This document shows, in pieces, positions 25,650 to 46,485 of a stretch of 64,000 bases of DNA; positions within the stretch are counted from its first letter, which is position 1; every line of letters begins with the position of its first letter. The notes below the pieces were generated by a model. The model ran no database searches. It was not told where the DNA came from and worked only from the letters and a program-made list of their open reading frames with translations. The stretch spans positions 161 through 64,160 of the forward strand of contig BPDA01000003.1 in NCBI GenBank assembly GCA_019654055.1, given 5' to 3'. A program made the translations under genes and the position numbers. The stretch comes from Methanobacteriota archaeon (GTDB lineage: Archaea > Thermoplasmatota > Poseidoniia > Poseidoniales > Thalassarchaeaceae).

Positions 25650-26495
25650 ATGAGGGTAGCAATCTCGGCGTCCGACGCGTTCGTCGCTCCGTACATAGCC
25701 GAAATGCTCGGCGACTCCGCCGTGGTGGTGCCAGACGAGGCGCTTTCCGATGCCACTTCTCTCGATGCCATGCTGACTCCCTGTAGCGCCCTGATACACA
25801 TCAACTCGCGACCCGCGGACACCTCGGTCGGCCGCACCGACCGCGAGGCATACATCACTATGAGGGAGGCATCCAGACCGATTCTCGATGCGGTGGACAG
25901 GCACGGGGGCCTTCATCTGGTGATACTGGGCACCCTGCGTGTGCACCCCCAGTGGAGCGCTGGGGAAGCGTACTACGGGCTCGAGTCTACCCTAGCTCCC
26001 CGTGACACCGCGGCAGAGGGGCAGTTGTGGATGGAGGAGAATGCACTGGAGCGAGCCGAGGCAGAACGGCCGGTGAGCATAGTCAGGGCCTCCAACGTCC
26101 AAGGTATGCCTCTAGAGGGGCCTCCAGGCAACGGTCTGCTCCATAGGTGGGCCGAGGAGTGCCAGATCGGTTGGATCAACATTCCCGGAGATGGGTCCGA
26201 CATCAAGGACTTCATTCACGTCGAGGACCTCGTGAGGGTGGTGGATGCGGTCCTCTCAAGCCCGCCCCCGACCAGAGAGAGCATTGCAGTGGGGTCTGGC
26301 AAGGGGATATCGATGGAGGATCTCGCATCAATCTACCAGCAGAGGACTGGTTGCGACCTAGAGTTCGGGCAGAGTGATGAGGAGGAGGTCTTCGGAATCG
26401 TCGATGCATGGGGCCTAGAGGAGAGATTCGGGTTCAGGCCGCAGATAAGTCTCGAGGAGATGATCGGGGAGGCCTTCGAGGCCGCAGGTCACTGA
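25650..26495 (+). CDS. NAD(P)-dependent epimerase/dehydratase-fold (extended SDR-like) protein with degenerate cofactor and catalytic motifs
   Basis: 281 aa with overall SDR-like layout (IVRASNVQG, DFIHVEDLV). The N-terminal G-x-x-G-x-x-G is replaced by ISASDAFVAPY, and no clear Y-x-x-x-K is present. Confidence 0.45.
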   Translation: MRVAISASDAFVAPYIAEMLGDSAVVVPDEALSDATSLDAMLTPCSALIHINSRPADTSVGRTDREAYITMREASRPILDAVDRHGGLHLVILGTLRVHPQWSAGEAYYGLESTLAPRDTAAEGQLWMEENALERAEAERPVSIVRASNVQGMPLEGPPGNGLLHRWAEECQIGWINIPGDGSDIKDFIHVEDLVRVVDAVLSSPPPTRESIAVGSGKGISMEDLASIYQQRTGCDLEFGQSDEEEVFGIVDAWGLEERFGFRPQISLEEMIGEAFEAAGH

Positions 26496-28735
26496 GCGTT
26501 CAGTATCAGCCTCTTGCGAATCCCGTTCCACCCAGCGATGGATGCATTCAACGAGTGCTCGGAACCTCTGCGGAACGGGCCCGAGTCGGCATCATTGCGA
26601 AGACGGATATCAACCTCGCCGACTCCCGGAATCTCGGCGATGATGGTACTTCCCCCTCTGTACTCGTCGTCCACGCCGATTCCGAAAGTGCGCTCGGGAG
26701 CTGTTGTCACCTTGATTGAAATGTCGTGAGGCTGTCCTTCGACGGATTCGGCAAGCCTTCTCTGGTCCGACAGCATCCTAGCTTCGGAGAATGCGGAGGC
26801 GAGGTCGACCAGATTAAGAGTGGCGGGTGGAGCGTTAGCATCTACCTCTGGTGCGCCCTTCGGCGTGACGGGTTCTGGAGTCTCCATCTGCCTGGGAGGA
26901 GGGGAGGATCTCCTGCGGGAAGTGACTGATACCCTGTCGGGCACTGAGACTCTCGAGGACCTAGTTACGCGGTGACTGTCGTGCCATGCAGAGCCTCGCT
27001 GCTCACGAACGTCGACTTGTTCTGGGATGTCGACTTGTTCTGGGATGTCGACTTGTTCTGGGATGTCGACTTGTTCTGGGGCGTCGACATGCCGCTCCTC
27101 GTGCCAGGTGTCATGGCTGGCATATTTCAGATCCTCTGGATCAGCGGGTGCTTCCTCTTCTGCTTTCGCAGCAGTGGTGGCTTCTTCTTCGGCGTTTTCC
27201 CTCATATCAGCAGTAATTGCGCCCGCAACACCCACTGCGGCTGCTCCGGCAGCTATGGCCTCGGGGCTCGGCATCCTAGAGGCGATCTGATTCTGCATAG
27301 AGTCTGCGCGGATCCTCCAGATCCTCCTAGCGGCGGACTGTACGGAGAAGGGCAGTTTCTCAATCTCCTTCTCCACCTCCGCATCGGCAATCGACCTAGC
27401 CTGATCGAGTGACATGCCGCCGTCGATCACGGATTGCTCCAACTTGGGCAGCATCTCTGTGAAATTCCCAGTGACCGTGTCGAACTCGGACTCGCCTGCA
27501 TCGGCAGGGGGGCGGGCGGCATCGGTGACCTCGAACGCGACGTATGCAATCTCTCGACCATTATTGTCCGTGTCATGAAGTCTCAGAGTCCACTTCCCCG
27601 GTCCGGGATTGGGCAGGGAGAAGTCGCCGCTGGTCCTGCCTTCGAGATACTTGTAGCTGGTCTCGTGCTGGTCGTTGACCGCCTCATCACCATGAGGAAT
27701 CTCTGCCGGTACGATTCCTATCCAGGCGTCGTCCGGAAGTTCGGGTGAGATGAAGGAGAAATTGATGCCCTCGTCGCTCTTGTAGGAAGATCTCGATGGG
27801 GTGATTTTGATTGTCGGCGACGATGGCGGCTGCGACGCTTCCACCGTGAAGTCCACTCGGTTGTGTAAGGTGTAGCCTCCATCTGAGAATACTCGTATGC
27901 TCCATTGCCCTTCGGACTGCCCAGGCAATGATGCGTTGTTCACGTCAATTTCTCTGAGCCAGCGCCAACGGTCTTCTCCGTGCTCATTGTCCCCTGCACT
28001 AACTGGATAGATACCGACCCAAGCGTCGTTGCTACTGGGGACCTCGTTGATTCTGAAGCGTACGGGTTGGCCTGGAGTCGTATCTAGAATCTCGATGGGG
28101 GCGTTTGTCCACGCTTCGAGGCCCTCAGGCGGACTTTCCGGGCCGGAAGCAGCTGAGACCGTGATCTTGCCGACACCCACCCATCTGCGAGACCCCGTGG
28201 GAAGTGAGCCGTCGCCCCTAGGGCGCGACCAGCCGCCCCTGTACCAGTCGTTGCTGCCGTCCTGCTCCCTGTCGTCTAGGCTCCACGAGGGGGCGCCGCC
28301 GCTGTTGGCGTTGTAGTAGTAGAGGCGGTTCCCAGCTGCGCTCTTGTACCACGGCTTGCCGTTAATCGGGGTCTCCTGCATAGCGTATTCTCCGTTATAG
28401 GAGTCGTTGGGATGCCCGGATATCGAAACGCCTCCTCCGGCAGGTATCGAATCTGTGGGACCTCCTTCCAACAGCACCAGTATCTCAGTGAGATCCACCG
28501 AGCCGTCCGAGTTGATGTCAATCGCCCCGAATACCGCCCTGAGTATGGCCGCAGGTGCCTGCTGACCCGTAATCGACTCCAGCGCTGCTGCGAACTCGTT
28601 CTCCGATAGGGTCCCGTCGCCGTCCAAATCGTACTTGGCAAATAGGGCCTCTCCGGAAACTCCCTTGCTACGCAGGACCTCCTGCAGATTCTTGATGGCG
28701 ATTGCCTCTATGGTCCCACGGGCGCCGTCCATCAT
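26489..28735 (-). CDS. EF-hand pair / WW-like / 2x SKICH-like multidomain protein with hexapeptide tandem repeat
   Basis: 748 aa with no signal peptide. Canonical 12-residue EF loops DLDGDGTLSENE and DINSDGSVDLTE. WW-like PWYKSAAGNRLYYYNANSGGAPSW. Two similar modules carrying DAWVGIYP and DAWIGIVP. IPEQVD repeated 4 times. Confidence 0.7.
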   Translation of the reverse strand: MMDGARGTIEAIAIKNLQEVLRSKGVSGEALFAKYDLDGDGTLSENEFAAALESITGQQAPAAILRAVFGAIDINSDGSVDLTEILVLLEGGPTDSIPAGGGVSISGHPNDSYNGEYAMQETPINGKPWYKSAAGNRLYYYNANSGGAPSWSLDDREQDGSNDWYRGGWSRPRGDGSLPTGSRRWVGVGKITVSAASGPESPPEGLEAWTNAPIEILDTTPGQPVRFRINEVPSSNDAWVGIYPVSAGDNEHGEDRWRWLREIDVNNASLPGQSEGQWSIRVFSDGGYTLHNRVDFTVEASQPPSSPTIKITPSRSSYKSDEGINFSFISPELPDDAWIGIVPAEIPHGDEAVNDQHETSYKYLEGRTSGDFSLPNPGPGKWTLRLHDTDNNGREIAYVAFEVTDAARPPADAGESEFDTVTGNFTEMLPKLEQSVIDGGMSLDQARSIADAEVEKEIEKLPFSVQSAARRIWRIRADSMQNQIASRMPSPEAIAAGAAAVGVAGAITADMRENAEEEATTAAKAEEEAPADPEDLKYASHDTWHEERHVDAPEQVDIPEQVDIPEQVDIPEQVDVREQRGSAWHDSHRVTRSSRVSVPDRVSVTSRRRSSPPPRQMETPEPVTPKGAPEVDANAPPATLNLVDLASAFSEARMLSDQRRLAESVEGQPHDISIKVTTAPERTFGIGVDDEYRGGSTIIAEIPGVGEVDIRLRNDADSGPFRRGSEHSLNASIAGWNGIRKRLILNAQ
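27011..27088 (-). repeat. 18-bp tandem repeat (about 4.3 copies) encoding (IPEQVD)n
   Basis: gtcgacttgttctgggat is repeated head to tail on the + strand, in frame within the 748-aa CDS. Confidence 0.9.
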
Positions 28736-31441: not shown

Positions 31442-32152
31442 TCACTCGTCATCGGTTGTGTCCGACAGTCTAGGCAGGATGATTGCCATCCCGACGAGCG
31501 AGGCCAGCAGAATCAGCACGAGTACATCGTCGTCAGTAGACTTTTCCTCCTCGGAACCTGTGGGAGGATTAGTTGGAAGCGTGTGCTGGTCCTCTGAGAA
31601 GTTGACTGTGAAAGGTGACTCTGTCAGGGTTTGGTTGTGCTCAATCTGATGCAGCATCGAGATGTTGCCGGGCAGCAGGCCGTTAGATGGATCGAGAAGG
31701 ATCAGTTCGGTCACCTCGCAATCGGAATCTACCTTATCACCGGTCTCGTTCAGTTCGCACGAGGGAGATAGCCAGGCCGTGGCCATATCATCCACCCCCT
31801 CGAACACCCCATCCCCGTCGGCATCGATCAACACCCTGTGAGCCACTCCATCGCGACTGTCGACGTTGTAGAAGAACAGCGAGTCCGTCGAGACCAGGAT
31901 ACCTGGTGCGACCCCATCAGGAGTAACGCCGTCCTCTTTGAGGAGCATCGTGTATTCCTTGGGCTCGTGGGCGGATGCCGGCACTGCCAGAAGTAGCAGA
32001 GACAACGTTACTGTCAACAGGCAGACTTCTCGCACGCCCCGCCGTAGCGGGGCGATGGCTTCAACATGACCGGCAGGCTCGCAGCGCCCAGTGGATTCGC
32101 AACGCACCGTTCTAGCCATCGGGCTCGCTGTCTGCATGGTAGCTGCCATCAC
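31442..32152 (-). CDS. secreted, C-terminally TM-anchored cupredoxin-like protein; predicted mature N-terminus His (paralog of 35878..36414)
   Basis: Signal CLLTVTLSLLLLAVPASA followed by HEPKEY. The core DSLFFYNVDSRDGVAHRVLIDADGDGVFE is shared with the paralog. C-terminal TM VLVLILLASLVGMAIIL. The probable start is GTG at 32035 (MREVCLL). Confidence 0.55.
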   Translation of the reverse strand: MMAATMQTASPMARTVRCESTGRCEPAGHVEAIAPLRRGVREVCLLTVTLSLLLLAVPASAHEPKEYTMLLKEDGVTPDGVAPGILVSTDSLFFYNVDSRDGVAHRVLIDADGDGVFEGVDDMATAWLSPSCELNETGDKVDSDCEVTELILLDPSNGLLPGNISMLHQIEHNQTLTESPFTVNFSEDQHTLPTNPPTGSEEEKSTDDDVLVLILLASLVGMAIILPRLSDTTDDE

Positions 32153-33836
32153 CGCCGTGATGATGCTTTCAGACAGTCCTGAAGACGGTGACTCTGACTA
32201 TGGAGGGATACTTGACCCACTAATACAGGACGAGGGTCACGACCACAGAAACGCCAGCCAGCACATGATGTACACCGACAACATCCAGCCTATCTCCTTC
32301 AACGGACTGACGGCCCCGGGCAACGCGGAGATCCAAGTGGCAGACTCTCCTGACGGCAAGACCTACGCCTACATTGCCGGCTGGAGCGAGATGCACATAG
32401 TCGATGTGAGTGATCCCTCAAACACCACGGTCACTGGGGTCTACTACGACCCGAACACCCAGGTCCTCGATGTCAAGTACCTTGAGTACAACGGTAGGGA
32501 GTACGTCATCGTGCAGAACCAATTGGTCGACCCAGGCGCTGCCGACCCCAACGTTGGGGAGTGGGAGGATCCTGCCCAGGTCACAGTCACGCTGGTCGAC
32601 GTCACGGACAAGAGTGACCCGAGCTGGGTCGACTCGTGGTACGATGCTGACCATCCGAGTGGACCTCATAACCTCTACACCCATATGATCGACAACGAGT
32701 GGTACATCTTCGTCGCCAACCCCGACTACGAGGCGTGCGACGTGGGGCAGGGTGACGCATGCGGAGGCATCACCATCGCCCACCTCAACTTCGCCGGCTA
32801 CGGCGACCTGCCTCGGATAGTGAAGGTCGGAGAGGCCGAAGTCAGCTGGGAGTCAACGCTCGGAGGCTGGATCTATATCCACGACATGACGGTTCAGACC
32901 TGGCCCGGCGAGGATTCCAACGACCCTCGTTTCGAAAGGACCTACGTCTATGGGGCCTACTGGGAGGCGGGTCTACGGATTTTCGACGTCTCGGACGTCC
33001 CACACCCGAACAAGGATCTCATCGAGTATGCTTGGTATGGCTCGCTGTGCAGGCTCTCGGGAGGCACCCAAGCCGGCTGCACCTGGAGGGCGCCAGAGGT
33101 CGGCCAGTGGATGGAATTCGAGGACTTCGACGGCGACGGAGAGATTGACTGCGGCTGCACCAGCAACGAGAACGGAGGCCGCGCCTCCTACATTCACTAC
33201 GCCGAACCTGTCGACGAGATGGTCGACGCATCGCACCTAGGGTACCCTGCGGGGAAGATGCACCTGACTCTACTGGCGACGGAGGTCCTCGAGACCACTG
33301 TCGGGACGGGGATGGCCTACCTGCTCGACACCACTGCCTACGAAGAAGTGAACGGTAATGTTAGATTCATGCCAGAACTAATCCACGGCTGGGAAATCCC
33401 ATTTGCCAATGACCACCACATCCCGGGCGGCGAGGAGTGGTTGCTGTTCAGCCCGCACAACGCCGACACCCACGTCTTCCAGACTGGGCTGCCGGGGCTG
33501 CCCGACACCAGCCACGGTGGGGCGTGGGACGCTAGGATATATCTCTCCAGCTATCATGCCGGGCTGTGGGTGATGGATGTAGAGACATTGATGCTGGCAG
33601 GTCTGTCTGACGGCAACAAGACAGTTGTCCACATGGATGCCACCATCGGCTACCACCTGCCCCATGGGGTTGACGGTGAGCCGCTCGACAGTTCATACTA
33701 CGACTTCGGATGGACTCCGTTCCTGTGGGCAGCGGAGTACCACAAGGGCTACACCTACCTGTCATGCATCACCACCGGGCTGTACATTGTCCAGTTGGAC
33801 ATTGACCAGCCATACGGCGTGCCATTGGGCCAATAA
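32091..33836 (+). CDS. LVIVD-repeat beta-propeller surface protein (signal-anchored)
   Basis: N-terminal TM VLAIGLAVCMVAAITAVMML. LVIVD-type strands are repeated (MHIVDVSDPSN, VTLVDVTDKSDP, GLRIFDVSDVPHP, GLWVMDVE, GLYIVQLD). His-rich segment DEGHDHRNASQH near the N-terminus. Confidence 0.65.
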   Translation: MDSQRTVLAIGLAVCMVAAITAVMMLSDSPEDGDSDYGGILDPLIQDEGHDHRNASQHMMYTDNIQPISFNGLTAPGNAEIQVADSPDGKTYAYIAGWSEMHIVDVSDPSNTTVTGVYYDPNTQVLDVKYLEYNGREYVIVQNQLVDPGAADPNVGEWEDPAQVTVTLVDVTDKSDPSWVDSWYDADHPSGPHNLYTHMIDNEWYIFVANPDYEACDVGQGDACGGITIAHLNFAGYGDLPRIVKVGEAEVSWESTLGGWIYIHDMTVQTWPGEDSNDPRFERTYVYGAYWEAGLRIFDVSDVPHPNKDLIEYAWYGSLCRLSGGTQAGCTWRAPEVGQWMEFEDFDGDGEIDCGCTSNENGGRASYIHYAEPVDEMVDASHLGYPAGKMHLTLLATEVLETTVGTGMAYLLDTTAYEEVNGNVRFMPELIHGWEIPFANDHHIPGGEEWLLFSPHNADTHVFQTGLPGLPDTSHGGAWDARIYLSSYHAGLWVMDVETLMLAGLSDGNKTVVHMDATIGYHLPHGVDGEPLDSSYYDFGWTPFLWAAEYHKGYTYLSCITTGLYIVQLDIDQPYGVPLGQ

Positions 33837-33907: not shown

Positions 33908-34255
33908 TTGCCCATGACCGGACTCAGGAACGTCCCGATGCTGATGATGGTCACTCTGATGGTGCTAGCACCGCTGTCTGGATGCCTGTCGTTCATTACC
34001 GGAGACGATTCGGATGATGACGGGTACACTTGGGTGGACCCGGTGGTCGAGATCGAGGATGCCAATCACTCGCACAACGACATGTTGGCTCACAGACTGT
34101 ACACTCCGAATGCGAGGCTAATCGACTACCACAACCTCAACTGCGATGGTGAGGTCAAGCCTCCTGCGGACCTTGACAACACCGCTGGTCGCCCTTGCTA
34201 CCCCGAGTGGAAGAACGTCGGCCCGACTCCGGGGACAACTCTGAGATTGCAATAG
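33908..34255 (+). CDS. LVIVD-repeat lipoprotein, N-terminal fragment
   Basis: Signal/lipobox LMMVTLMVLAPLSGC. EDANHSHNDMLAHRLYT parallels DEGHDHRNASQHMMYT of the upstream paralog. The frame breaks at the GGGG run 34231-34234. Confidence 0.65.
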   Translation: MPMTGLRNVPMLMMVTLMVLAPLSGCLSFITGDDSDDDGYTWVDPVVEIEDANHSHNDMLAHRLYTPNARLIDYHNLNCDGEVKPPADLDNTAGRPCYPEWKNVGPTPGTTLRLQ

Positions 34256-35868
34256 AGGGTAACTTCTACGAGGACTGCGAGATTTACGCCGACGGTAGCG
34301 GGGGGTGCTATGCCTACGTATCCAGTTACAACCAGTTCGAGATTCTAGACATCAGCAACCCAAACAACATACAATTGCTTTCAACGTACTACGCCGAGAT
34401 TGCCCGGATGATTGACATCAAGGTCACTCCAGATAACAACTGGGTGCTGGTAAATCACGAGTTGACCAACAGTGAGCTCGACCCGATACCCAACGACGAC
34501 GATGCCAACAGTGGGATGAATCGCCTCGATGTCATCTATGTCGGCGACAAGACCAGTCCAGTCAAGGTCGCCGAGTGGAACAACCCTCCTGCCGGCTTCC
34601 ACAATCAGGATGTTCACGTCTACTGCGACTGGGACCCGGCCAACCCACTGTGGTCCGGCGAGGAGTGTCACCTGTTCCTGTTCGGAGCCGACCCTTACCC
34701 CGAACTCGTAGCAGGCGGCGGTCCCGTCAAGGGCACACAGGTGTTCTACGTCCCTCTTGGCTTCGAGGCATGGACCTGCTGGGACTGTAACGATGAGCAA
34801 CAAAACTCGAGTCGAGAGATACTCCGATGGGGCGCCTACACGCCAGAGGGTCAGACCACATGCGGCGGCTCGGTGTTCAATCACGACCACGTGTTCTTCG
34901 TCCACCCTGTGACCAAGCAGAAGCTTCTGATTGCATCTTACTGGGATGCTGGTCTGAGGATCGTGGATGTCACCGAGCCACCAGATGTGGCTGACTCGAT
35001 GGGAATTACATGGCCACAGGAAATAGGTCGGTGGCTGGGGTGTTCATCTGATGACAGCGGGTGGTACGGCCCCGACGGAGGAGGACATGCCGACATGTCT
35101 GCCGAAGAGTGGCTCGACGCTGGTCAGGGCAACGGCAACATCCACTATGCAATTCCGTTCAAGAATCTAGTCTGCGACGGCATCAGCGAATATGATCCCG
35201 TGTCAGAATGGCCTGCCAGTTGCGGAACCGGGCCCGAAGATGCTAGCTACGGTCAGAATTGGAGGCACTACACGATTATCGCCCCAGAATACGGCTCTAA
35301 CGACAATCACACAGGATACCTATGGACTATTGATACTACAGATCCAACCAAGCCGTTCCTCGTCTCAAAATGGAGACTTCCGGGCCAGGGCATGCTTGCC
35401 AACGGCAGTAGCCACCCGCAGCACTACATCCCTGGCGGCTACATCTACAGTCCGCACAATGGTGACATCGGGCCCAACGGTCACGCTTACTGGACCCACT
35501 ACCACGCAGGTGCTTGGTTAACCGATCATGGCCATACTTGGGACGAGTTGGTATGGGAAAACAGCTACCCCGAACCCGATAGGGGCTTCAAGGCGATAGT
35601 CGATCTGGCTCCGACCCACACCGTGGGATACTACTTGCCTTCGGGCCCAGAGTGGTCGGACAACGCCAGCGAGGAGCTGGGTTACGACATGGCAGACTGC
35701 TGGGCCTCCTGCATGATTCCATTCGACTGGGGGCTGCAGTACGATCCGAGGGGTTTCGTGCTAATCTCCGAGATGGTCAGTGGCATCTACGTCGTGCAGT
35801 TCGACGAGGACTACGACCCACGTTACCACTACCCGGCCCTGTGGCAGGCCGAGGCGAGCGATGAGTGA
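34195..35868 (+). CDS. LVIVD-repeat beta-propeller protein, C-terminal fragment (authentic from ~34232)
   Basis: FEILDISNPNN, LDVIYVGDKTSP, GLRIVDVTEPPD and GIYVVQFDE. Paralogous to 32091..33836. Confidence 0.65.
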   Translation: MLPRVEERRPDSGDNSEIAIEGNFYEDCEIYADGSGGCYAYVSSYNQFEILDISNPNNIQLLSTYYAEIARMIDIKVTPDNNWVLVNHELTNSELDPIPNDDDANSGMNRLDVIYVGDKTSPVKVAEWNNPPAGFHNQDVHVYCDWDPANPLWSGEECHLFLFGADPYPELVAGGGPVKGTQVFYVPLGFEAWTCWDCNDEQQNSSREILRWGAYTPEGQTTCGGSVFNHDHVFFVHPVTKQKLLIASYWDAGLRIVDVTEPPDVADSMGITWPQEIGRWLGCSSDDSGWYGPDGGGHADMSAEEWLDAGQGNGNIHYAIPFKNLVCDGISEYDPVSEWPASCGTGPEDASYGQNWRHYTIIAPEYGSNDNHTGYLWTIDTTDPTKPFLVSKWRLPGQGMLANGSSHPQHYIPGGYIYSPHNGDIGPNGHAYWTHYHAGAWLTDHGHTWDELVWENSYPEPDRGFKAIVDLAPTHTVGYYLPSGPEWSDNASEELGYDMADCWASCMIPFDWGLQYDPRGFVLISEMVSGIYVVQFDEDYDPRYHYPALWQAEASDE

Positions 35869-35877
35869 GTTGATTCT

Positions 35878-36414
35878 ATGCGCGTGAAGGCGCTTGCCGT
35901 GATACTCGTAGTGACTCTGCTGATGCCTACTGCGGTTGCGCACGGGGCAAACACATTCTCATTCATCATGAGGAACCAGTCCATTCAGCCTGACACGGCA
36001 CAGGTTCTGCAGAATGATACCCTGATCTTCGTCAACACGGCAGACTATGACCGAAACGTGCTGATTGACGCGGACGGGGATGGGGTCGAGGAGATGAACT
36101 GCATCGCTGGCCCCTCTAACTCATCCTCCACTGATGACGAGTGTTACCTGTGGCTGGACCCAGCCAACTGGACTCAGGGGGAGTACGAGGTGAGGATCCA
36201 TTCGAACGGCAGCCTGTGGCAGACGATCTCACTGACTGTGGTGCTAGACGACCACACGGAGACCCTGCCGCCAGAAGGCTTCACATTCGGCCCGGACCCG
36301 AGCGAGCCTGAGGAGGATGATTCGAGTGTGCTGCTGAGTGCCGCGGTTCTCATGGCCGGTGCCGCGGCGTTCGTCTGGGTTGTTCGCAACGTCAAGGGAG
36401 ATGAGGCAGAGTGA
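35878..36414 (+). CDS. secreted, C-terminally TM-anchored cupredoxin-like protein; predicted mature N-terminus His
   Basis: Signal MRVKALAVILVVTLLMPTAVA followed by HGANTF. Core DTLIFVNTADYDRNVLIDADGDGVEE. C-terminal TM VLLSAAVLMAGAAAFVWVV. Starts 10 nt after the upstream stop. Confidence 0.55.
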   Translation: MRVKALAVILVVTLLMPTAVAHGANTFSFIMRNQSIQPDTAQVLQNDTLIFVNTADYDRNVLIDADGDGVEEMNCIAGPSNSSSTDDECYLWLDPANWTQGEYEVRIHSNGSLWQTISLTVVLDDHTETLPPEGFTFGPDPSEPEEDDSSVLLSAAVLMAGAAAFVWVVRNVKGDEAE

Positions 36415-37142
36415 AGCGGGCACTGGCTGTTCTGGTGGCTGCCAGCGTCATTCTGGCAGGATGCCTAGGAGATGCTGAATCCGACGTGTTCTACGGCGAA
36501 GACATCAACCCGCCGGTTCCCGCAGATGACTTCGTCCTAGTCGACGAGAACGGAGATTACTACTCGTTGTACCAATTGCAGGGCAAGGTAATCGTGGTCG
36601 CCTTCCTCTTCACGAGGTGTCCCGACATATGCCCGATAGTCAGCGCGAACCTCGACTTCGTCTCAGAGGAACTCGGCGATAAATTCGGCTCCGAGGTCGC
36701 CATATTGTCGATTACCGTCGACCCTTGGGCGGATAACTCAAGCGTGTTATCGGCCTATGCCGAGCAGAGGGGGCTGGACTGGCCCCATCTGACGACTTCA
36801 GACCCCAGCGACCTCTCCGAACTCGAGGAAGTATGGAGGAACTTCGGCGTAGGACTCGAAGTATACAACTCAGACGAGGACTCGGATGGGGTGGTCGACG
36901 GCTTCGACACCTGTCCGGGAACTCCCGAGGGTGAGTCGGTCGACGACAACGGCTGCGGCCTGGAGACCCAGCAGACCGAAGGCGACGTCAAGGTGATGCA
37001 CCACCCGCTGACATACTGGGTGGGCCACGAGACCGGGACGATTATCATCGACAAGCAGATGCACCAGAGGGTCTGGTGGGGCGACAACGACTGGAATGTG
37101 GAGTTGGTACTCGAGGACATCTACCTCCTACTGGAGGAGTGA
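36411..37142 (+). CDS. Sco1/SenC-family thioredoxin-fold copper chaperone lipoprotein with D/C-rich insert
   Basis: Lipobox ASVILAGC. GKVIVVAFLFTRCPDICP (C-x-x-x-C). A conserved His lies in VMHHPLTYWVGHETGTIIID. Insert DSDGVVDGFDTCPGTPEGESVDDNGCG. The start overlaps the upstream stop by 4 nt. Confidence 0.8.
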   Translation: MKRALAVLVAASVILAGCLGDAESDVFYGEDINPPVPADDFVLVDENGDYYSLYQLQGKVIVVAFLFTRCPDICPIVSANLDFVSEELGDKFGSEVAILSITVDPWADNSSVLSAYAEQRGLDWPHLTTSDPSDLSELEEVWRNFGVGLEVYNSDEDSDGVVDGFDTCPGTPEGESVDDNGCGLETQQTEGDVKVMHHPLTYWVGHETGTIIIDKQMHQRVWWGDNDWNVELVLEDIYLLLEE

Positions 37143-38231
37143 GTGATGCGCCAAGGGATAATCGCCGTACTGCTCGCCAGCATGCTGGTGCTACCCGGGT
37201 GCATAGCGTCCGATGACGGCGTCGAGTTGTATGGCGTCGAGTACAGGGAACCACCAGATGCACCGGACTTCACGCTATTCGATCAGAACGGGGACCCGTT
37301 CACGCTCTCCGAGCACGAGGGTAAGGTCGTGGTTGTCGCGTTCGTCTACACCTCGTGCCCCGACATCTGTCTCGTGATCTCAGCCAACCTGGACTACATC
37401 GGCCAGAACCTCGCTGGCTACTCCGATGATGTCGTCATCGTCTCGGTGACCATCGACCCCGCTCGCGACACTGTGAGCCACCTGGCGGAGTGGACCGAGC
37501 AGATGAGCTATGACTGGTACCACCTGACCGGACCGACAGCCACCCTGCAGGACACGTACAGATCCTGGAACGTGATTGTCGACAACGAGCACATCAACGC
37601 CAGCCAGCCGCCTGAGGAAGGTACGAATCGAATCGCGGTCCTATACCCGGACAACTCCTCCTTCCACCACGATGAGGTCGGGGCTGGACTGAGTGCGAGC
37701 GACTTCGCGATTCAGGCCTTCAATGACTCGAACATCAGCTACGACATGAGCGAGGGGCTCATTGGGGACTGGCAGTCTGGTGACGAATGGTCCTGGGTCC
37801 TGCACCTCTGGGACATCGATAACGAGTCCTGGGTACCCACCGAGTGGGACATCTCATCCATCTCCCTAGATGCTGGGACTCATCTGGCCTGGGCAGCCAG
37901 CAACGCCGACATGGGGAGCCTACCTCCGGGAGTGGAATGCAACGGCCATGGCTGGGTGATGGGTTCGGGAGGTGGGGCCCACTGCATGTGCGACGAGGGC
38001 TATGAGAGGCCCGATGGCGACTGGTTGGCATGCGTGGCCGAGGGTACCGGTAGCAGCGGCCAGAGTAACGGCGCAGACCCTCACGAAGAGTCCCTCGGGG
38101 AGTACGAGGTCGGCCACTCTACGGTTACCTTCGTCCTCGACAAACAACTGCGCAAGCGCGTCGCCTATTCAGGAATCGACTGGGGTGTCGATGATTTCCT
38201 CCACGATCTCAAAGCGCTGGCAGACGAGTGA
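37143..38231 (+). CDS. Sco1/SenC-family lipoprotein with ~170-aa insertion containing an EGF-like Cys pattern
   Basis: Lipobox LVLPGC. GKVVVVAFVYTSCPDICL. The distal GHSTVTFVLDKQ strand is present. The insert includes ECNGHGWVMGSGGGAHCMCDEGYERPDGDWLAC. Starts directly after the upstream stop. Confidence 0.75.
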   Translation: MMRQGIIAVLLASMLVLPGCIASDDGVELYGVEYREPPDAPDFTLFDQNGDPFTLSEHEGKVVVVAFVYTSCPDICLVISANLDYIGQNLAGYSDDVVIVSVTIDPARDTVSHLAEWTEQMSYDWYHLTGPTATLQDTYRSWNVIVDNEHINASQPPEEGTNRIAVLYPDNSSFHHDEVGAGLSASDFAIQAFNDSNISYDMSEGLIGDWQSGDEWSWVLHLWDIDNESWVPTEWDISSISLDAGTHLAWAASNADMGSLPPGVECNGHGWVMGSGGGAHCMCDEGYERPDGDWLACVAEGTGSSGQSNGADPHEESLGEYEVGHSTVTFVLDKQLRKRVAYSGIDWGVDDFLHDLKALADE

Positions 38232-38234
38232 TTC

Positions 38235-39164
38235 ATGGGTTCGTTTCAAGAATCCGCCCCTTATGGGGCGGATGTGGCTGACGACGGCGTCGCTCGCTCG
38301 CTTTTCCTCGCAGGGCTGATGGTTGTCAGCGTAATGGTCGGCATTCTGTTCTTCGATGTCGAGAAGGAGGGGCAGAACCTCGCTCCAATCATCGAAGGCG
38401 AAATCCCCTCCAACATCCTCTTCGGAAGCATCGACTCGCTGAGCTTGAGCATCACGGATGAGGAGATGGGAGGGTTGACGGTGACCGCCACGCTCGACGA
38501 GAATCCCATTCAGGATATGATGGATGCAGACGGCAATCTCATCATTGACATCTCCGAGCTCAAAATGGGCAGTCACGTAATCAAGGTGGAGGCAACAGAC
38601 AGTCTCGGGCAGGAGTCTAGGTGGACCACGGTATTCATCATCGAGTACCCCGATGAGGGTTTCACGGTGATAGTGGTCAGCAGCAACGAGATATTCGTCG
38701 AGCGTGGCAACGGCACCACTGTCTCTGGGGTCTTGGTCCACCAGAGCATGGAGACCTGCGAGCTAGGGTGGTCTGACGGCAACGTGGACGAGTTCAGCCT
38801 GAACCTGCCTTACGACGAGAACGGGAGGTTCGATCTGGAGTTCTCCGACATTCAGGAGAACCTGACGATATCAGTCAGGGGTACCTGTGGGACATGGGTC
38901 GACTCTTCCGAGACCGAGGTGTTCAACATCACAGTCACCGAACCCGCCGAACAGCCTGAGCCGGCTCGCGGGTGCACCGACCCGGGAGCCAACAACTACG
39001 ACGAGAGCGCCGAGGAAGACGATGGGTCGTGCACCTACGATGAGGAGCCCGAGCCCAGCAGAGGATGCACCGACCCGGAGGCCAACAACTACGACGAGAG
39101 CGCCGAGGAAGACGACGGGACGTGCACCTACGACGAAGAGTCAGAGCCCGAGCCGGTTTCCTGA
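38235..39164 (+). CDS. N-terminally TM-anchored Ig-like-domain protein with two C-terminal GCTD..NYD..DDG.C.Y modules
   Basis: TM LFLAGLMVVSVMVGILFF. Beta-rich Ig-like segments (HVIKVEATDSLGQES). Tandem RGCTDPGANNYDESAEEDDGSCTYDEEPEP and RGCTDPEANNYDESAEEDDGTCTYDEESEP. Confidence 0.55.
   Translation: MGSFQESAPYGADVADDGVARSLFLAGLMVVSVMVGILFFDVEKEGQNLAPIIEGEIPSNILFGSIDSLSLSITDEEMGGLTVTATLDENPIQDMMDADGNLIIDISELKMGSHVIKVEATDSLGQESRWTTVFIIEYPDEGFTVIVVSSNEIFVERGNGTTVSGVLVHQSMETCELGWSDGNVDEFSLNLPYDENGRFDLEFSDIQENLTISVRGTCGTWVDSSETEVFNITVTEPAEQPEPARGCTDPGANNYDESAEEDDGSCTYDEEPEPSRGCTDPEANNYDESAEEDDGTCTYDEESEPEPVS
38967..39152 (+). repeat. 93-bp tandem duplication (2 copies) encoding the 31-aa Cys module
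   Basis: gccaacaactacgacgagagcgccgaggaagacga is identical at 38988 and 39081, and the flanking bases are near-identical. Confidence 0.85.
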
Positions 39165-43074: not shown

Positions 43075-44297
43075 GCGAATCTGTCGACGACCTCTTCGAG
43101 GTACTGCACGAATGACTCGGCCTCGCCCATGGTGTTGTAAATCCAGAACGAGGCGCGGTTCGTCGAAGGCACTCCCAACGCGTCCATCAGCGGCTGGGCG
43201 CAGTGATGGCCGGTCCTGACCGCGAAGCCTCCCTCGTCCAGCAGCAGTGCTAGGTCCTGCGACTGTATGTCCTCGTGCAGGAAGGAGACCGCCCCACTGC
43301 TGTCCTCCCTGTCCGGGTCGCCGTAGATTCTAATCCCAGGGATCTCCCTCATCCTAGACGCGGTCCACGAGGCGATGTCGTTGATGTGCTCGTGCACCTC
43401 TCTCATGTCAAACTGGTCGAGCCATTCGACAGCGGCCCCCCAGCCTATCGCCTCCGCGATTCGGGGTGTTCCGGTCTCGAACATAGCGTGGCCTTCCTGG
43501 AACGTCGAGCCCTCGGTCGAGACTCGCTTAATCATCGACCCGCCAGTCATGAACGGGCCCATCTCGGCCATCGCGTCGCGTCTGACGAGCAGGCAGCCTA
43601 TGCCAGTGGGCCCAGCCATCTTGTGAGCAGATATGGCGACGAAGTCCGCCCCCAGTGAGTCGAAGTCGATTCTCTCGTGTGGGGCCCCCTGGGCGCAGTC
43701 TATGAGCACCCGCGCGCCGGCGGCATGCGACATCTCGATGATATTCTCTATCGGATTGCGCACGCCCAGGACATTGCTGGTGTGGACGACGCAGACCAGA
43801 GAGGCGCCTTCGATAGCCACTTCGAAGGCATCCATGTCGAGAGTGAATGACGCGGTGTCGATGGGCACATACCTGACCTCGATACCGTTGTCGACGGACA
43901 TCTGCTGCCAAGGAACGATGTCCGCGTGGTGCTCCATCTCGGTCAGGACGACGACATTGCCCTCGCTGAGGTTCTCCCTCGCCCAGCCGTAGGCTGCCAG
44001 GTTGATCGCCTCGGTAGCCCCGCTGGTGTAGATCATCTGGTCGGGGGAGGTTCCGAAGTACGAGGATATTCGCTCCCTTGCGCCCTCCAGCGCCGTGGTC
44101 GCCTCGTCGGCGAGGGTGTGATTGGCCCTGTGCGCATTGGAGTTGTAGTGCTCGTAATACTCGCTCATGGCGTCAATAACGCACTGCGGCTTCTGAGAGG
44201 TCGCAGCGTTGTCGAAGTAGACGAGTCTCTTGCCGTTCGGCAGCGTTCGCGCGAGGATGGGGAAATCAGCACGTATATCCTCGATGTCCAAAGCCAT
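43071..44297 (-). CDS. sufS: cysteine desulfurase, SufS type
   Basis: 408 aa with PLP-Lys context ISAHKMAGPTGIGCL and the catalytic loop RTGHHCAQP. Confidence 0.9.
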   Translation of the reverse strand: MALDIEDIRADFPILARTLPNGKRLVYFDNAATSQKPQCVIDAMSEYYEHYNSNAHRANHTLADEATTALEGARERISSYFGTSPDQMIYTSGATEAINLAAYGWARENLSEGNVVVLTEMEHHADIVPWQQMSVDNGIEVRYVPIDTASFTLDMDAFEVAIEGASLVCVVHTSNVLGVRNPIENIIEMSHAAGARVLIDCAQGAPHERIDFDSLGADFVAISAHKMAGPTGIGCLLVRRDAMAEMGPFMTGGSMIKRVSTEGSTFQEGHAMFETGTPRIAEAIGWGAAVEWLDQFDMREVHEHINDIASWTASRMREIPGIRIYGDPDREDSSGAVSFLHEDIQSQDLALLLDEGGFAVRTGHHCAQPLMDALGVPSTNRASFWIYNTMGEAESFVQYLEEVVDRFA

Positions 44298-44355
44298 CGC
44301 TGTCCCTCGGTCATTTCGAACCGATGGTCCGATATCAAGTAGCGCCCGGGCGTGG

Positions 44356-46485
44356 ATGGCTCATACGGGCAAACCCAATAACTTGGACAGGGCATGTTAC
44401 CGCGTGAGCAAGGTCCCAGCCTCCTCCGTTCTCGTATCGATGCTGGTGCTCTCGCTGGCCTTCACCGCAGTTGCTCAAACCGTGCCTCCGCCCGAGTGGT
44501 CAGACGCCGTCACAGCCGGTGGGTGGTGGGAGGACCAAGTCACCGACATCGCGGTAGACCCCGGCACGGGTGACGTAATCGTCGTTGGCACTTTCCTGTA
44601 CAATCTCCATCTGGGGCCCTACGTCCTCTCCTCGGTGCCTCATGTCACGATGGGTAACGCGAGTGACATCTTCGTGGCGAAGCTCTCCGGTTCCGAGTGG
44701 AAATGGGCTGTCTCCGCGGGAGGGGGGGACCACGACTGGGCCAACTCGATTGCCATCGACTCCAATGGCGACGCGTACGTGGCCGGGGGCTTCATGTCAA
44801 ACAATAGCTCGTTCGACCAGTTCACACTGGCCAACGCGGATCAGACTCCTAGGACAGGACTGGTTTCCCAGCCCACCTCAGACGGATTCTTGGCGAAGAT
44901 CAGCAAGGAGGGTAACTGGCAGTGGGTCGAATCATTCTCCGGCCCCGGTTCAGAAGAGGTCTCCGAGGTATCAGTAGGGCCGAACGACAAGGTGGTGGCT
45001 GCCGGCACCTTCCATTCATCCAGCATGCATTTCAGAGGGAACAAGTCACTCTCCAACAGCGGAATGAATGGGACCGCGGACATCTTCGTCATCAAGCTCG
45101 ACGGCAACGGCTCGCACGTCTGGCACACCCAGGTCTTGGGGTCGCATGACGAGGTGGTGCAGGGGATGGCCATCCACGAATACGGGGATGTGATGCTCAC
45201 CGGCTACTTCCTCGACCAAGCGGCGTACTTCACGCCGTACAAGGCAATCAACTCCAAACCGGGCTACTCAGAGGCCTTCGTCGCCAGACTATCTCCCTCT
45301 GGATTATGGTCATGGGTCGCTGTGGCTGGCGGGGAACGAGGTGACGAGGGGGTCGACTTGGATGTGGACTCCAACGGCATGACCTACGTAATCGGTCGAT
45401 TCGGTTCAGACTCCATCGGATTCCGAGACCCCAGTAACCTCTCTGTGTCCAAACTCGACAACACGGTGCAGGTTGGCTCGACAGACGTCTTCGTAGCCAA
45501 GCTGGATGGGGCTGGAAACTGGCTGTGGGTCGTCGGCATAGAGGGCGAAGGCACCGATGATGCTGGTGGCATCACGGTGATTGAGGAGTGCGGCTCCTCA
45601 GTAGAGAGTGGTGGAGATGCTGGCTCGTCCTCACAGAGCGGGTGCGTGACCGGTGCGGTCGTGGCAGGTGGCTTCTACTCGTTGAGCTATGTCTTCGGCA
45701 ATACTATCTTGCAACATTCGGCGGCTACCTCCCATCAAGACATGTACCTTGCTGGAATCTCCGAAAATGGCAGTTGGCAGTGGGCGATATCGGGCGGGAT
45801 GGCAAAGTGGCCCGAGTACTTCGCGCTGGAGAACCACTACGGGACCATTCACATCGCAGGCTCTTTCGCGGTGGGCAAGGTGACTCTGGGGGAGTACGAC
45901 ATGCACAACTGGGACGAGAACAGCACCTACCAGTGGCCCGACGGCTTCGTCGCCTCCCTTGAGTACCCGCCACCGCCTCCCCCGGCAGGGTGCACGGACT
46001 CGCAAGCCATCAACTGGGATCCGCTTGCTCAGGTCGACGACGGTTCTTGCGAGTACGACAACGACGGTGACGGAATCGGCGACAACTCCGATGACGATGA
46101 CGATGACGATGGTTTCAACGATGTAATCGAGGTTTTCTGCGACACCGACCCCTTGGATTCCGACTCATACCCCTTGGACTCGGACTCGGACGGGATCTGC
46201 GACTTCATGGACGACGATAGCGACAACGACGGTCTGCTCGATGGGGAAGAGATAGAGTATGGAACTGATCCGATGAACCCGGACTCGGACGGGGATGGAT
46301 TCTATGACGGAGACGAAGTTCTGGGAGGACATGACCCGCTGGATGCCGAGGATTATCCCCTGCGCCTGTGCTGCCTCCCTCCCAGTCCCCTTGTGTCGGC
46401 ATTGCCGGTGATTCTGGTCGGGCTATTGATTGCACTATTCCTCTGGAGGAGGAAGAAGGTAAAATCGACTGAATCGGACGATTAG
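44356..46485 (+). CDS. secreted SBBP-like beta-propeller protein with Cys module, TSP3-like repeats and C-terminal TM anchor
   Basis: Signal SSVLVSMLVLSLAFTAVAQ. SBBP-like blades (IAIDSNGDAYVAGGF, LDVDSNGMTYVIGRF). GCTDSQAINWDPLAQVDDGSCEY. DNDGDGIGDNSDDDDDDDG, DSDSDGICD and DSDGDGFYD repeats. C-terminal TM ALPVILVGLLIALFLW. The ORF is open from 44230 but that start would overlap sufS, so ATG 44356 is preferred. Confidence 0.7.
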   Translation: MAHTGKPNNLDRACYRVSKVPASSVLVSMLVLSLAFTAVAQTVPPPEWSDAVTAGGWWEDQVTDIAVDPGTGDVIVVGTFLYNLHLGPYVLSSVPHVTMGNASDIFVAKLSGSEWKWAVSAGGGDHDWANSIAIDSNGDAYVAGGFMSNNSSFDQFTLANADQTPRTGLVSQPTSDGFLAKISKEGNWQWVESFSGPGSEEVSEVSVGPNDKVVAAGTFHSSSMHFRGNKSLSNSGMNGTADIFVIKLDGNGSHVWHTQVLGSHDEVVQGMAIHEYGDVMLTGYFLDQAAYFTPYKAINSKPGYSEAFVARLSPSGLWSWVAVAGGERGDEGVDLDVDSNGMTYVIGRFGSDSIGFRDPSNLSVSKLDNTVQVGSTDVFVAKLDGAGNWLWVVGIEGEGTDDAGGITVIEECGSSVESGGDAGSSSQSGCVTGAVVAGGFYSLSYVFGNTILQHSAATSHQDMYLAGISENGSWQWAISGGMAKWPEYFALENHYGTIHIAGSFAVGKVTLGEYDMHNWDENSTYQWPDGFVASLEYPPPPPPAGCTDSQAINWDPLAQVDDGSCEYDNDGDGIGDNSDDDDDDDGFNDVIEVFCDTDPLDSDSYPLDSDSDGICDFMDDDSDNDGLLDGEEIEYGTDPMNPDSDGDGFYDGDEVLGGHDPLDAEDYPLRLCCLPPSPLVSALPVILVGLLIALFLWRRKKVKSTESDD

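What the first reader, a model, noticed from the sequence alone, without database searches (positions are those of the whole stretch)
35878..36414. Two paralogous small proteins whose predicted signal-peptidase cleavage exposes His as residue 1 (histidine-brace candidates)
Seen: 35878..36414 reads ..LLMPTAVA|HGANTF and 31442..32152 reads ..LLLAVPASA|HEPKEY. Both have an A-x-A cleavage motif followed immediately by His. They share the core D(T/S)L.F.N...(R/N)VLIDADGDGV.E and both end in a single TM anchor. Established: a mature N-terminal His, using its amino group plus imidazole, forms the copper histidine brace in LPMOs, CopC, YcnI and the PmoB N-terminal site. Inference: these are membrane-tethered mononuclear Cu proteins, which fits the adjacent Sco1 genes.
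Basis: partly seen in the sequence, partly recalled or inferred. Interest (0 to 1): 0.7.

Follow-up and report, generated by a model that had tools for sequence, protein, structure and literature searches.

The report
Archaeal cupredoxin proteins with N-terminal histidine
Two small membrane-anchored surface proteins of marine Poseidoniales archaea belong to an undescribed family whose first mature residue is almost always histidine, and they most likely hold copper the way bacterial CopC does, next to Sco1 copper chaperones.

Summary
B (35878..36414,+) and A (31442..32035,-; the ORF runs to 32152) are paralogs (BLASTP E=1e-8). Each has a Sec-type signal peptide ending A-x-A|H and a C-terminal transmembrane helix.

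Among 77 family representatives with a presequence, position +1 is His in 70 and Asp in 7. Position -1 is Ala or Gly in 76. A second motif, D124-x-H126, sits just after the last strand and is conserved in both paralog families, as are two Cys.

The AF2 model of B is a cupredoxin-type sandwich that lacks the type-1 Cys/His/Met ligands. No Pfam or NCBIfam family matches. Profile comparison finds no homology to CopC, and only a signal-peptide-level match to PmoB.

The family was found only in Poseidoniales. It always lies beside an LVIVD beta-propeller with seven invariant His, and in all but two loci beside Sco1. MGIIb carries the module in duplicate; two MGIIa loci and one unplaced locus carry a single triad. 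One Asp1 lineage has extra His and no Sco1 in its cluster.

Best reading: a new family of histidine-brace Cu(II) proteins (His1 amine and imidazole, His126, Asp124), analogous to CopC and YcnI, acting in copper handling. Metal identity, site geometry and role are inferred, not shown.

The parts
35878..36414 (+). Gene B: 178-aa precursor made of signal peptide, cupredoxin-fold domain, acidic/Pro linker and C-terminal TM anchor
   Evidence: ORF; orthologs only in Poseidoniales; AF2 model with core pLDDT >90; Foldseek cupredoxin hits
35878..35940 (+). B signal peptide (aa 1-21), ending P-T-A-V-A
   Evidence: n/h/c regions and the -3/-1 rule; family statistics
35941..35943 (+). B His22, predicted residue 1 of the mature protein (proposed amine + imidazole ligand)
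   Evidence: Invariant in A1 and A3; H 72 / D 7 in 85 representatives
36067..36084 (+). B D64-A-D-G-D-G69, a DxDxDG calcium-loop-like motif after strand 4
   Evidence: D64 73/85, D66 (D48/N21), D68 71/85, G69 69/85. A Ca-binding role is inferred from general knowledge of the motif
36100..36144 (+). B Cys75 to Cys89, a probable disulfide closing the loop between strands 5 and 6
   Evidence: Both invariant in A3; C89 77/77 and C75 70/85; they lie at the ends of adjacent strands in the model
36247..36255 (+). B Asp124-Asp-His126, the D-x-H motif directly after the last strand (proposed carboxylate and second imidazole ligand)
   Evidence: Invariant in both paralog families; D 63/69 and H 68/71 aligned; covaries with residue 1
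36325..36393 (+). B C-terminal transmembrane helix (about aa 150-172)
   Evidence: AF2 helix 150-175; hydropathy 2.31
31442..32035 (-). Gene A: paralog, 197 aa from GTG 32035 (maximal ORF to 32152), same architecture as B
31967..31969 (-). A His62 (ORF numbering), predicted mature residue 1 after ..VPASA
   Evidence: CAC codon read directly; nearly invariant in A2
31838..31840 (-). A His105 in N-x-D...t-H-R-v-l-i-D, the position of the first His ligand of classical cupredoxins; absent in B
   Evidence: Invariant in A2; His, Met or deleted across subtypes
31808..31825 (-). A D110-A-D-G-D-G115, DxDxDG loop
31718..31759 (-). A Cys132 to Cys145, probable disulfide
   Evidence: Invariant
31649..31651 (-). 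A His168 (m-H-Q-I, strand 7), an extra invariant His of the A subfamily
31583..31591 (-). A Asp188-Gln-His190, the D-x-H motif after the last strand
   Evidence: Invariant
31472..31525 (-). A C-terminal transmembrane helix
   Evidence: Hydropathy 2.87
32091..33836 (+). LVIVD beta-propeller 1 (581 aa, N-terminal TM anchor), divergent from A
   Evidence: Pfam LVIVD E=7.5e-10; AF2 pTM 0.75, propeller fold; 7 invariant His
33914..35868 (+). LVIVD-like beta-propeller 2 (about 651 aa in orthologs), interrupted in the window by a 1-base frameshift near 34233-34236
36411..37142 (+). Sco1/SenC homolog a (lipobox LAGC, CPDIC, downstream His)
   Evidence: Pfam SCO1-SenC E=2.4e-19
37143..38231 (+). Sco1/SenC homolog b (lipobox LPGC, CPDIC, GHS), with a large insertion
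   Evidence: Pfam SCO1-SenC E=5.9e-26
38235..39164 (+). Seventh syntenic gene: membrane-anchored protein with weak, sub-threshold Ig-like matches
   Evidence: Weak Big_6/Big_13 hits below Pfam cut-offs; syntenic in all loci with enough flank

Best explanation
A and B are two paralogs of a Poseidoniales-specific family of extracytoplasmic proteins. Each is tethered to the membrane by a C-terminal helix and has a roughly 105-residue cupredoxin-type beta-sandwich.

Proposed mechanism: signal peptidase cleavage after A-x-A makes His the first residue. Its free amine and imidazole, the His of the D-x-H motif that follows the last strand, and probably that Asp carboxylate form a CopC-type histidine-brace Cu(II) site. 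The site would lie at the pole of the sandwich where the N- and C-termini emerge, opposite the classical type-1 site and near a DxDxDG (Ca-like) loop.

The protein would capture or hold Cu(II) at the cell surface and exchange it with the co-encoded Sco1 proteins. This would metallate a partner, most plausibly the co-encoded His-rich LVIVD beta-propellers or other cuproenzymes.

Shown: paralogy, conservation, fold class, absence of type-1 ligands, synteny. Inferred: cleavage site, ligand set and geometry, copper as the metal, and the trafficking role.
For: - His +1 with Ala/Gly at -1 is conserved: invariant in A1 and A3; H 70 / D 7 of 77 representatives.
- D124 and H126 are invariant across both paralog families and occur in 63/69 and 68/71 aligned representatives.
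- Mature B has only 3 His, and 2 of them are these.
- Residue 1 and the C-terminal motif covary. Asp1 variants carry 2 or more His in the motif in 5 of 6 cases, against 10 of 59 for His1 (Fisher p=0.002).
- The fold is cupredoxin: 4hcf TM 0.68-0.73, EfeO N-domain, plastocyanin; sub-threshold Cupredoxin_1 hits in 4 of 30 members. In this topology strand 1 starts and strand 8 ends at the same pole (strand order plus textbook plastocyanin topology).
- The ligand logic matches CopC, which has His1 with D89-x-H91 (sequence verified; two His + one Asp site per PMC12154828). The architecture matches YcnI: cupredoxin fold, N-terminal His, C-terminal TM helix needed in vivo (10.1101/2021.06.11.448128; PMC12154828).
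- The module cupredoxin + LVIVD + Sco1 is syntenic in about 50 species and in the reduced MGIIa triad. Both window Sco1 proteins keep CxxxC and His (sequences).
- A lineage with Asp1 lacks Sco1 in its cluster.
- His is replaced by Met at the canonical ligand position in some subtypes, which is typical of copper sites.
Against:
- pLDDT at both termini is moderate (about 72-75).
- N-terminal-His proteins can be Ni or other-metal binders (PMC12537917).
- There is no sequence homology to CopC (hhalign 0.6%), and no YcnI or PCuAC hit.
- Here D-x-H follows the last strand, whereas in CopC it sits in a hairpin loop.
- The covariation test is not corrected for phylogeny and rests on 6 Asp1 sequences.
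- The Sco1-loss link rests on one locus.
- The LVIVD partner has no detectable similarity to a known cuproenzyme.
Confidence: 0.55

Rival explanations
1. The histidine-brace cupredoxin is a redox or catalytic subunit rather than a chaperone. It would form a complex with the LVIVD propeller as part of a new extracellular copper oxidoreductase, and Sco1 would only serve maturation. The layout would resemble NosZ (propeller plus cupredoxin) or methanethiol oxidase with SCO1.
For: One cupredoxin gene per propeller gene in every variant of the module. The propellers keep 7 invariant His plus a near-invariant H-x-H. There is a precedent for SCO1 next to a non-respiratory cuproenzyme (PMC5739008). 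FtrB, a Cupredoxin_1-type protein, uses a C-terminal Asp/His Cu2+ site for Fe2+ oxidation (PMC11966278).
Against: No similarity of the propeller to NosZ, thiocyanate dehydrogenase or SBP56 was found. The known non-LPMO histidine-brace proteins cited here (CopC, PmoF, YcnI) are described as non-enzymatic (10.1101/2021.06.11.448128). The domain is small and the proposed site is solvent-exposed at the termini.
Confidence: 0.2
2. The N-terminal His/D-x-H site binds a metal other than copper (Ni, Zn, Fe), or the proteins are Ca-stabilised structural or adhesive subunits of a surface complex with the LVIVD propellers.
For: N-terminal His chelates several 3d metals regardless of fold (PMC12537917). 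The DxDxDG loop is strongly conserved. LVIVD repeats are described as cell-surface repeats (PMC2447325). The Asp1 lineage has His-rich acidic tails and no Sco1.
Against: Linkage to Sco1 is constant in almost all lineages. The scaffold is a cupredoxin. His/Met interchange at the canonical copper-ligand position. A purely structural role does not explain 91% His at +1 with compensating His when it is lost.
Confidence: 0.17
3. They are ordinary blue-copper (type-1) electron carriers like the halocyanin and plastocyanin of these archaea.
For: Cupredoxin fold and membrane tether. A keeps His at the first canonical ligand position.
Against: There is no Cys-x-His-x-Met loop. The only two Cys are a conserved pair flanking a loop between strands 5 and 6. 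B lacks the canonical His altogether. No Pfam Copper-bind hit.
Confidence: 0.03

Closest known systems
CopC (PF04234), class C0-1 / C1-1 periplasmic copper proteins
   Same: Signal peptide cleaved before His1. The Cu(II) site is built from the His1 amine and imidazole, a second His and an Asp in a D-x-H motif about 90-105 residues downstream. Small Greek-key beta-sandwich. Some members also have a Met-rich Cu(I) site at the opposite pole, paralleled here by the variable His/Met 'northern' position.
   Different: No detectable sequence or profile homology (hhalign 0.6%, no Pfam hit). Here D-x-H follows the last strand instead of lying in a hairpin. This family has a C-terminal TM anchor, a DxDxDG loop and a conserved disulfide, is archaeal only, and partners with Sco1/LVIVD rather than CopD.
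YcnI / PcuD (DUF1775, PF07987)
   Same: Signal peptide, then a cupredoxin-fold extracytoplasmic domain with N-terminal His as Cu(II) ligand, then a C-terminal TM helix. Encoded with copper-trafficking genes.
   Different: YcnI is a mono-histidine brace (His, Glu, nearby Trp). This family has a conserved second His. No Pfam match.
Cupredoxin_1 / EfeO N-domain / FtrB (PF13473, Cup-I/Cup-II)
   Same: Best compact structural matches (4hcf, 7wgu). Weak sub-threshold Pfam hits. Non-type-1 cupredoxins. FtrB has a proposed C-terminal Asp/His Cu2+ site.
   Different: Below the Pfam threshold (best E 0.11). The papers read here describe no N-terminal His ligand for these families. They occur in iron-uptake operons and are soluble periplasmic proteins or domains.
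PmoB/AmoB N-terminal cupredoxin domain (CuB site)
   Same: His directly after the signal peptide on a cupredoxin-like domain. Local resemblance ..PTASA|HG.....F.MR.
   Different: The match is confined to 36 residues, most of them signal peptide (hhalign 54%). PmoB uses H-x-H, not D-x-H. PmoB is part of a multi-subunit membrane enzyme that is absent here.
Signal-strapping families (DUF4198, DUF6702, Ang-1, Ang-2; PMC12537917)
   Same: Secreted or anchored proteins recognised by a conserved His at +1 of the signal peptide; metal capture at the cell surface.
   Different: Mainly bacterial families with different folds and metals (Ni for DUF4198). No Pfam match of A or B to them.

Membership tests
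CopC (PF04234) | Mature N-terminal His generated by signal peptide cleavage | tested here: met
   A-x-A|H; H 70 of 77 representatives. The cleavage site is inferred, not predicted by a dedicated tool.
CopC (PF04234) | Second His plus Asp (D-x-H) completing the Cu(II) site | tested here: met
   D124-x-H126 is invariant in both paralog families. CopC D89-T-H91 verified in 1m42. The position in the fold differs.
CopC (PF04234) | Sequence/profile membership | tested here: not met
   No Pfam hit at E<=10 in 30 members; hhalign probability 0.6%.
CopC (PF04234) | 1:1 Cu(II) binding | not testable with these tools
   Needs ICP-MS or EPR on protein with a native N-terminus.
YcnI / DUF1775 (PF07987) | Signal peptide + cupredoxin-fold domain + C-terminal TM helix | tested here: met
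YcnI / DUF1775 (PF07987) | Mono-histidine brace (His, Glu, conserved Trp) and Pfam membership | tested here: not met
   A second conserved His is present; no PF07987 hit.
Type-1 blue copper proteins (plastocyanin/halocyanin, PF00127) | Cupredoxin fold | tested here: met
   Foldseek hits to plastocyanin 3bqv/3cvb with TMt 0.62-0.65.
Type-1 blue copper proteins (plastocyanin/halocyanin, PF00127) | His ... Cys-x(n)-His-x(n)-Met ligand set | tested here: not met
   No Cys in the strand 7-8 loop; the only Cys are the C75/C89 pair; B lacks the first His.
Cupredoxin_1 (PF13473; EfeO-N, FtrB) | Pfam gathering score | tested here: not met
   4 of 30 members hit, best E=0.11.
Cupredoxin_1 (PF13473; EfeO-N, FtrB) | Structural similarity | tested here: met
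   4hcf/4hcg/4hci TMt 0.68-0.73, rmsd 2.7-3.2; 7wgu.
PmoB/AmoB CuB domain | Homology of the N-terminal domain and an H-x-H motif | tested here: not met
   hhalign aligns only 36 columns, mostly signal peptide, probability 54%. The motif here is D-x-H.
LPMO (AA9-AA17) | Ig/FnIII-like catalytic domain of about 150-250 aa with a flat substrate face; LPMO Pfam families | tested here: not met
   The domain is about 105 aa. No LPMO Pfam hit. No LPMO among the top 50 Foldseek hits.
   No Pfam hit. Mature B has 3 Met, none in such a motif.

The most novel reading that the evidence does not exclude
The His1-cupredoxin, the LVIVD beta-propeller (seven invariant His plus an H-x-H...H motif) and Sco1 together form a previously unknown extracellular copper enzyme system that is universal in Poseidoniales. 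The histidine-brace protein would be its redox or catalytic partner rather than a passive chaperone. That would give these abundant, uncultured ocean archaea an unrecognised copper-dependent oxidative activity.
Probability: 0.2. Interest if true: 0.85.

Novelty: new variant of a known kind. Interest (0 to 1): 0.62.

Why it matters
Histidine-brace sites are known from LPMOs, pMMO, CopC, PmoF and YcnI. In the held literature I found no described archaeal family of this kind and no mention of this gene cluster.

This family carries the brace logic on a cupredoxin scaffold at the pole opposite the classical copper site. It belongs to a module (cupredoxin, His-rich LVIVD propeller, Sco1) found in every Poseidoniales genome sampled, and these are among the most abundant archaea of the surface ocean.

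If confirmed, it would identify how these uncultured organisms acquire or route copper in copper-poor seawater. It would also point to the LVIVD propellers, a repeat family with no assigned function, as candidate cuproproteins. The domain is small and soluble enough to be tested directly by EPR and titration.

Tried and rejected
1. PmoB/AmoB homology. The lead was a weak PDB profile hit (E=1.2). hhalign covers only the signal peptide plus about 15 residues, so I rejected it as homology.
2. CopC homology. hhalign gives 0.6%, so it stands only as an analogy.
3. Type-1 blue copper protein. Rejected on ligands.
4. Pfam and NCBIfam on A, B and 10 distant relatives gave no family.
5. PDB sequence searches with the A1 profile, LV1 and the A5 profile returned nothing meaningful.
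6. I predicted the structure of LVIVD-1 hoping for similarity to NosZ, thiocyanate dehydrogenase or SBP56. Only generic 7-bladed propellers came back, such as LGI1 EPTP and WD40.
7. Literature searches for LVIVD, Poseidoniales + copper, Marine Group II + SCO1, and histidine brace + archaea found no description of this family or cluster.
8. I could not measure His1-His126 distances because model coordinates are not exposed by the tools.
9. The CopC family paper PMC5260838 is not held.

Full report
**Observation**

The window is archaeal (TFB, PheRS, acidic proteins). All relatives of the finding that carry a name come from Candidatus Poseidoniales, i.e. Marine Group II.

BLASTP of A against B gives E=1e-8 at 28% identity and includes the quoted core. 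Most A orthologs start about 39 codons downstream of the maximal ORF, and a GTG lies at 32035. A is therefore probably 31442..32035, which removes the apparent overlap with the divergent gene at 32091.

**Conservation of the N-terminal His**

- In 29 B-family sequences down to 45% identity, the hydrophobic presequence varies and strict conservation begins at A21-H22-G23-A24. Other invariant positions include C75, C89 and D124-x-H126-x-E128.
- In the A family the equivalent His62 is nearly invariant; the one exception is a truncated sequence. D188-x-H190, C132 and C145 are invariant, and so are two extra His, H105 and H168.
- In a joint alignment, the columns invariant in both paralog families are A21, H22, P38, D47, L49, F51, N53, C75, C89, L93, N110, D124 and H126.
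- A profile search of 1.84 billion cluster representatives found only 163 proteins at E<=1e-3, so the family is small.
- Among 85 near-full-length representatives, position 22 is H in 72, D in 7 and a gap in 6. H126 is present in 68 of 71 aligned, D124 in 63 of 69, and C89 in 77 of 77.
- For the 77 with a presequence, -1 is A70/G6/T1 and -3 is V31/A30/T6/S5/G3/I2. K/R occurs in the n-region in 75, and a C-terminal hydrophobic helix in 62.

This is the pattern expected of a Sec signal peptide cleaved immediately before His. No dedicated predictor was available, so the site remains inferred.

**Coupling between residue 1 and the C-terminal motif**

The seven representatives with Asp at +1 tend to have extra His in the C-terminal motif, for example SSQHEH, GHSH and EHHH. 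Five of 6 Asp1 sequences have two or more His there, against 10 of 59 His1 sequences (Fisher p=0.002). The test is not corrected for phylogeny.

In the one Asp1 locus I examined (L060), the protein also has a His-rich acidic tail, and the cluster lacks the Sco1 genes.

**Fold**

The AF2 model of B has mean pLDDT 75, with the core above 90. It shows eight strands followed by a linker and a helix at 150-175.

Foldseek against the PDB returns cupredoxins. The best compact matches are:
- the copper-bound Cupredoxin_1 protein 4hcf (TM 0.68-0.73, rmsd about 2.7-3.2);
- the EfeO N-domain 7wgu;
- plastocyanin;
- two-domain laccases;
- a Nitrosopumilus cupredoxin.

Four of 30 family members give sub-threshold Pfam Cupredoxin_1 hits, best E=0.11. 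Nothing else in Pfam or NCBIfam matches.

The type-1 ligand loop (Cys, His, Met between strands 7 and 8) is absent. The only Cys are a conserved pair at the ends of strands 5 and 6, most simply a disulfide.

From the strand order and textbook plastocyanin topology (my knowledge), three elements emerge at the same pole of the sandwich, opposite the classical copper site:
- the start of strand 1;
- the end of strand 8;
- the loop after strand 4, which here is a conserved DxDxDG calcium-type motif.

His1 lies four residues before strand 1, and D-x-H lies two to four residues after strand 8. A site formed by the two termini is therefore topologically plausible. I could not measure it because model coordinates are not exposed.

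**Subtypes**

At the position of the first canonical cupredoxin ligand (N-x-D...t-H-R-v-x-D), the family splits:
- A-type members keep His, plus m-H-Q on strand 7.
- A group that includes members from named Poseidonia genomes (MGIIa) has Met there, and a second Met replaces N53.
- The B type has deleted the position.

So the family has a constant 'southern' His1/D-x-H site and a variable 'northern' His/Met position. This parallels the CopC classes with and without a second, Met-based Cu(I) site.

**Comparison with known families**

- CopC has His1 plus D89-T-H91. I verified the sequence against 1m42; entry 2c9r has Phe in place of His91. Its Cu(II) site is two His and one Asp on a cupredoxin-like barrel (PMC12154828). 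Profile comparison shows no homology (probability 0.6%).
- YcnI shares the whole architecture: cupredoxin fold, N-terminal His ligand, and a C-terminal TM helix needed in vivo (10.1101/2021.06.11.448128; PMC12154828). However, it is a mono-histidine brace and has no Pfam match here.
- PmoB resembles B locally (..PTASA|HG.....FMR). hhalign aligns only 36 columns, mostly signal peptide, at 54% probability.
- FtrB, a Cupredoxin_1-type protein, has a proposed C-terminal Asp/His Cu2+ site (PMC11966278). This shows that non-type-1 cupredoxins can use such residues.
- A 2025 study that searched for signal peptide + His proteins found mainly bacterial families of other folds, one of them a nickel binder (PMC12537917). 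That supports the general logic but warns that the metal is not fixed by His1 alone.

**Genomic context**

In 50 species-representative Poseidoniales genomes, the order A(-) | LVIVD-1, LVIVD-2, B, Sco1-a, Sco1-b, a seventh membrane-anchored protein (+) is kept wherever the contig is long enough, with few exceptions. One locus lacks a detectable A match (L010), and one has a reduced Sco region (L008).

In loci outside that set, including two MGIIa loci, the module is reduced to cupredoxin <-> LVIVD + Sco1, or occurs as two such units. One locus showed no annotated Sco1.

Both window Sco1 proteins keep CxxxC and the downstream His.

The LVIVD proteins model as 7-bladed propellers (pTM 0.75) and match only generic structural neighbours. 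Across LVIVD-1, LVIVD-2 and the other cluster-associated homologs they keep seven invariant His (H58, H193, H264, H369, H391, H456, H489) and a near-invariant H50-x-H52. No sequence similarity to solved cuproenzymes was found.

SCO1 next to a non-respiratory copper enzyme has a precedent in methanethiol oxidase (PMC5739008).

**Interpretation**

The best-supported reading is a new, lineage-specific family of membrane-tethered histidine-brace Cu(II) proteins on a cupredoxin scaffold. They would work with Sco1 in copper handling for a partner that is probably the LVIVD propeller. Confidence is about 0.55.

Rivals:
- a redox or catalytic subunit of a new propeller enzyme (0.2);
- another metal, or a Ca-stabilised structural role (0.17);
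- an ordinary blue copper protein (0.03, contradicted by the ligands).

It remains biochemically unproven.

Noticed in passing
window 33914..35868, break near 34233-34236: LVIVD-2 is split into two ORFs in different frames (33908..34255 and 34195..35868). Orthologs encode one 651-654 aa protein reading ..GPTPGDNSEI... The window has GGGG where GGGGG would restore the frame, so this is a homopolymer sequencing/assembly error or a real frameshift.
   Followed up: partly
window 32091..33836 and 33914..35868; L001, L003, L055, L057-L060: The LVIVD beta-propellers of this cluster keep seven invariant His (H58, H193, H264, H369, H391, H456, H489 in LVIVD-1 numbering) plus a near-invariant H50-x-H52, across paralogs and across the other homologs compared. 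With the constant Sco1 neighbour this suggests an undescribed metalloprotein, possibly a copper protein. No similarity to known copper propeller enzymes was found.
   Followed up: partly
L060 8001..8654 and flanks: A lineage whose B-like protein has Asp instead of His at +1 (..VAA|DGGETF) carries a His-rich acidic tail (SSQHEHEGSSHD...HDDDGHSHSHGEE). Its cluster lacks both Sco1 genes. The A-like neighbour keeps His1 and also has a His-rich tail.
   Followed up: partly
L055 2958..3656; P0296, P0297, P0319, P0335, P0358 and relatives: A subtype, including members from named Poseidonia genomes, replaces both Asn53 and the canonical cupredoxin His with Met (M-x-D...t-M-R). This hints at a Met-based Cu(I) site at the classical pole in addition to the His1/D-x-H site.
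   Followed up: partly
window 38967..39161: The seventh syntenic gene (38235..39164) ends in a tandem duplicated acidic motif with paired Cys: RGCTDP(G/E)ANNYDESAEEDDG(S/T)CTYDEE, twice.
   Followed up: no
window 36411..37142 and 37143..38231: Both Sco1 homologs have lipobox-like N-termini (LAGC, LPGC) and unusual insertions. Sco1-a has a thrombospondin type-3-like Ca-binding repeat (sub-threshold Pfam TSP_3 hit, E=0.011). Sco1-b has a long insertion with a Cys-rich stretch (CNGHGW...CMCDEGYERPDGDWLAC).
   Followed up: no
window 32036..32152 (- strand): The upstream extension of ORF A (..EPAGHVEAIAPLRRG..) looks conserved in some database proteins. It overlaps the start of LVIVD-1 on the other strand, so the apparent conservation may reflect that gene rather than a long presequence.
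   Followed up: partly
window 26489..28735 (-) and 44230..46485 (+): Other large proteins in the window carry calcium-type motifs. The first has an EF-hand; the second has a bacterial TSP3 repeat with a beta-propeller repeat.
   Followed up: no
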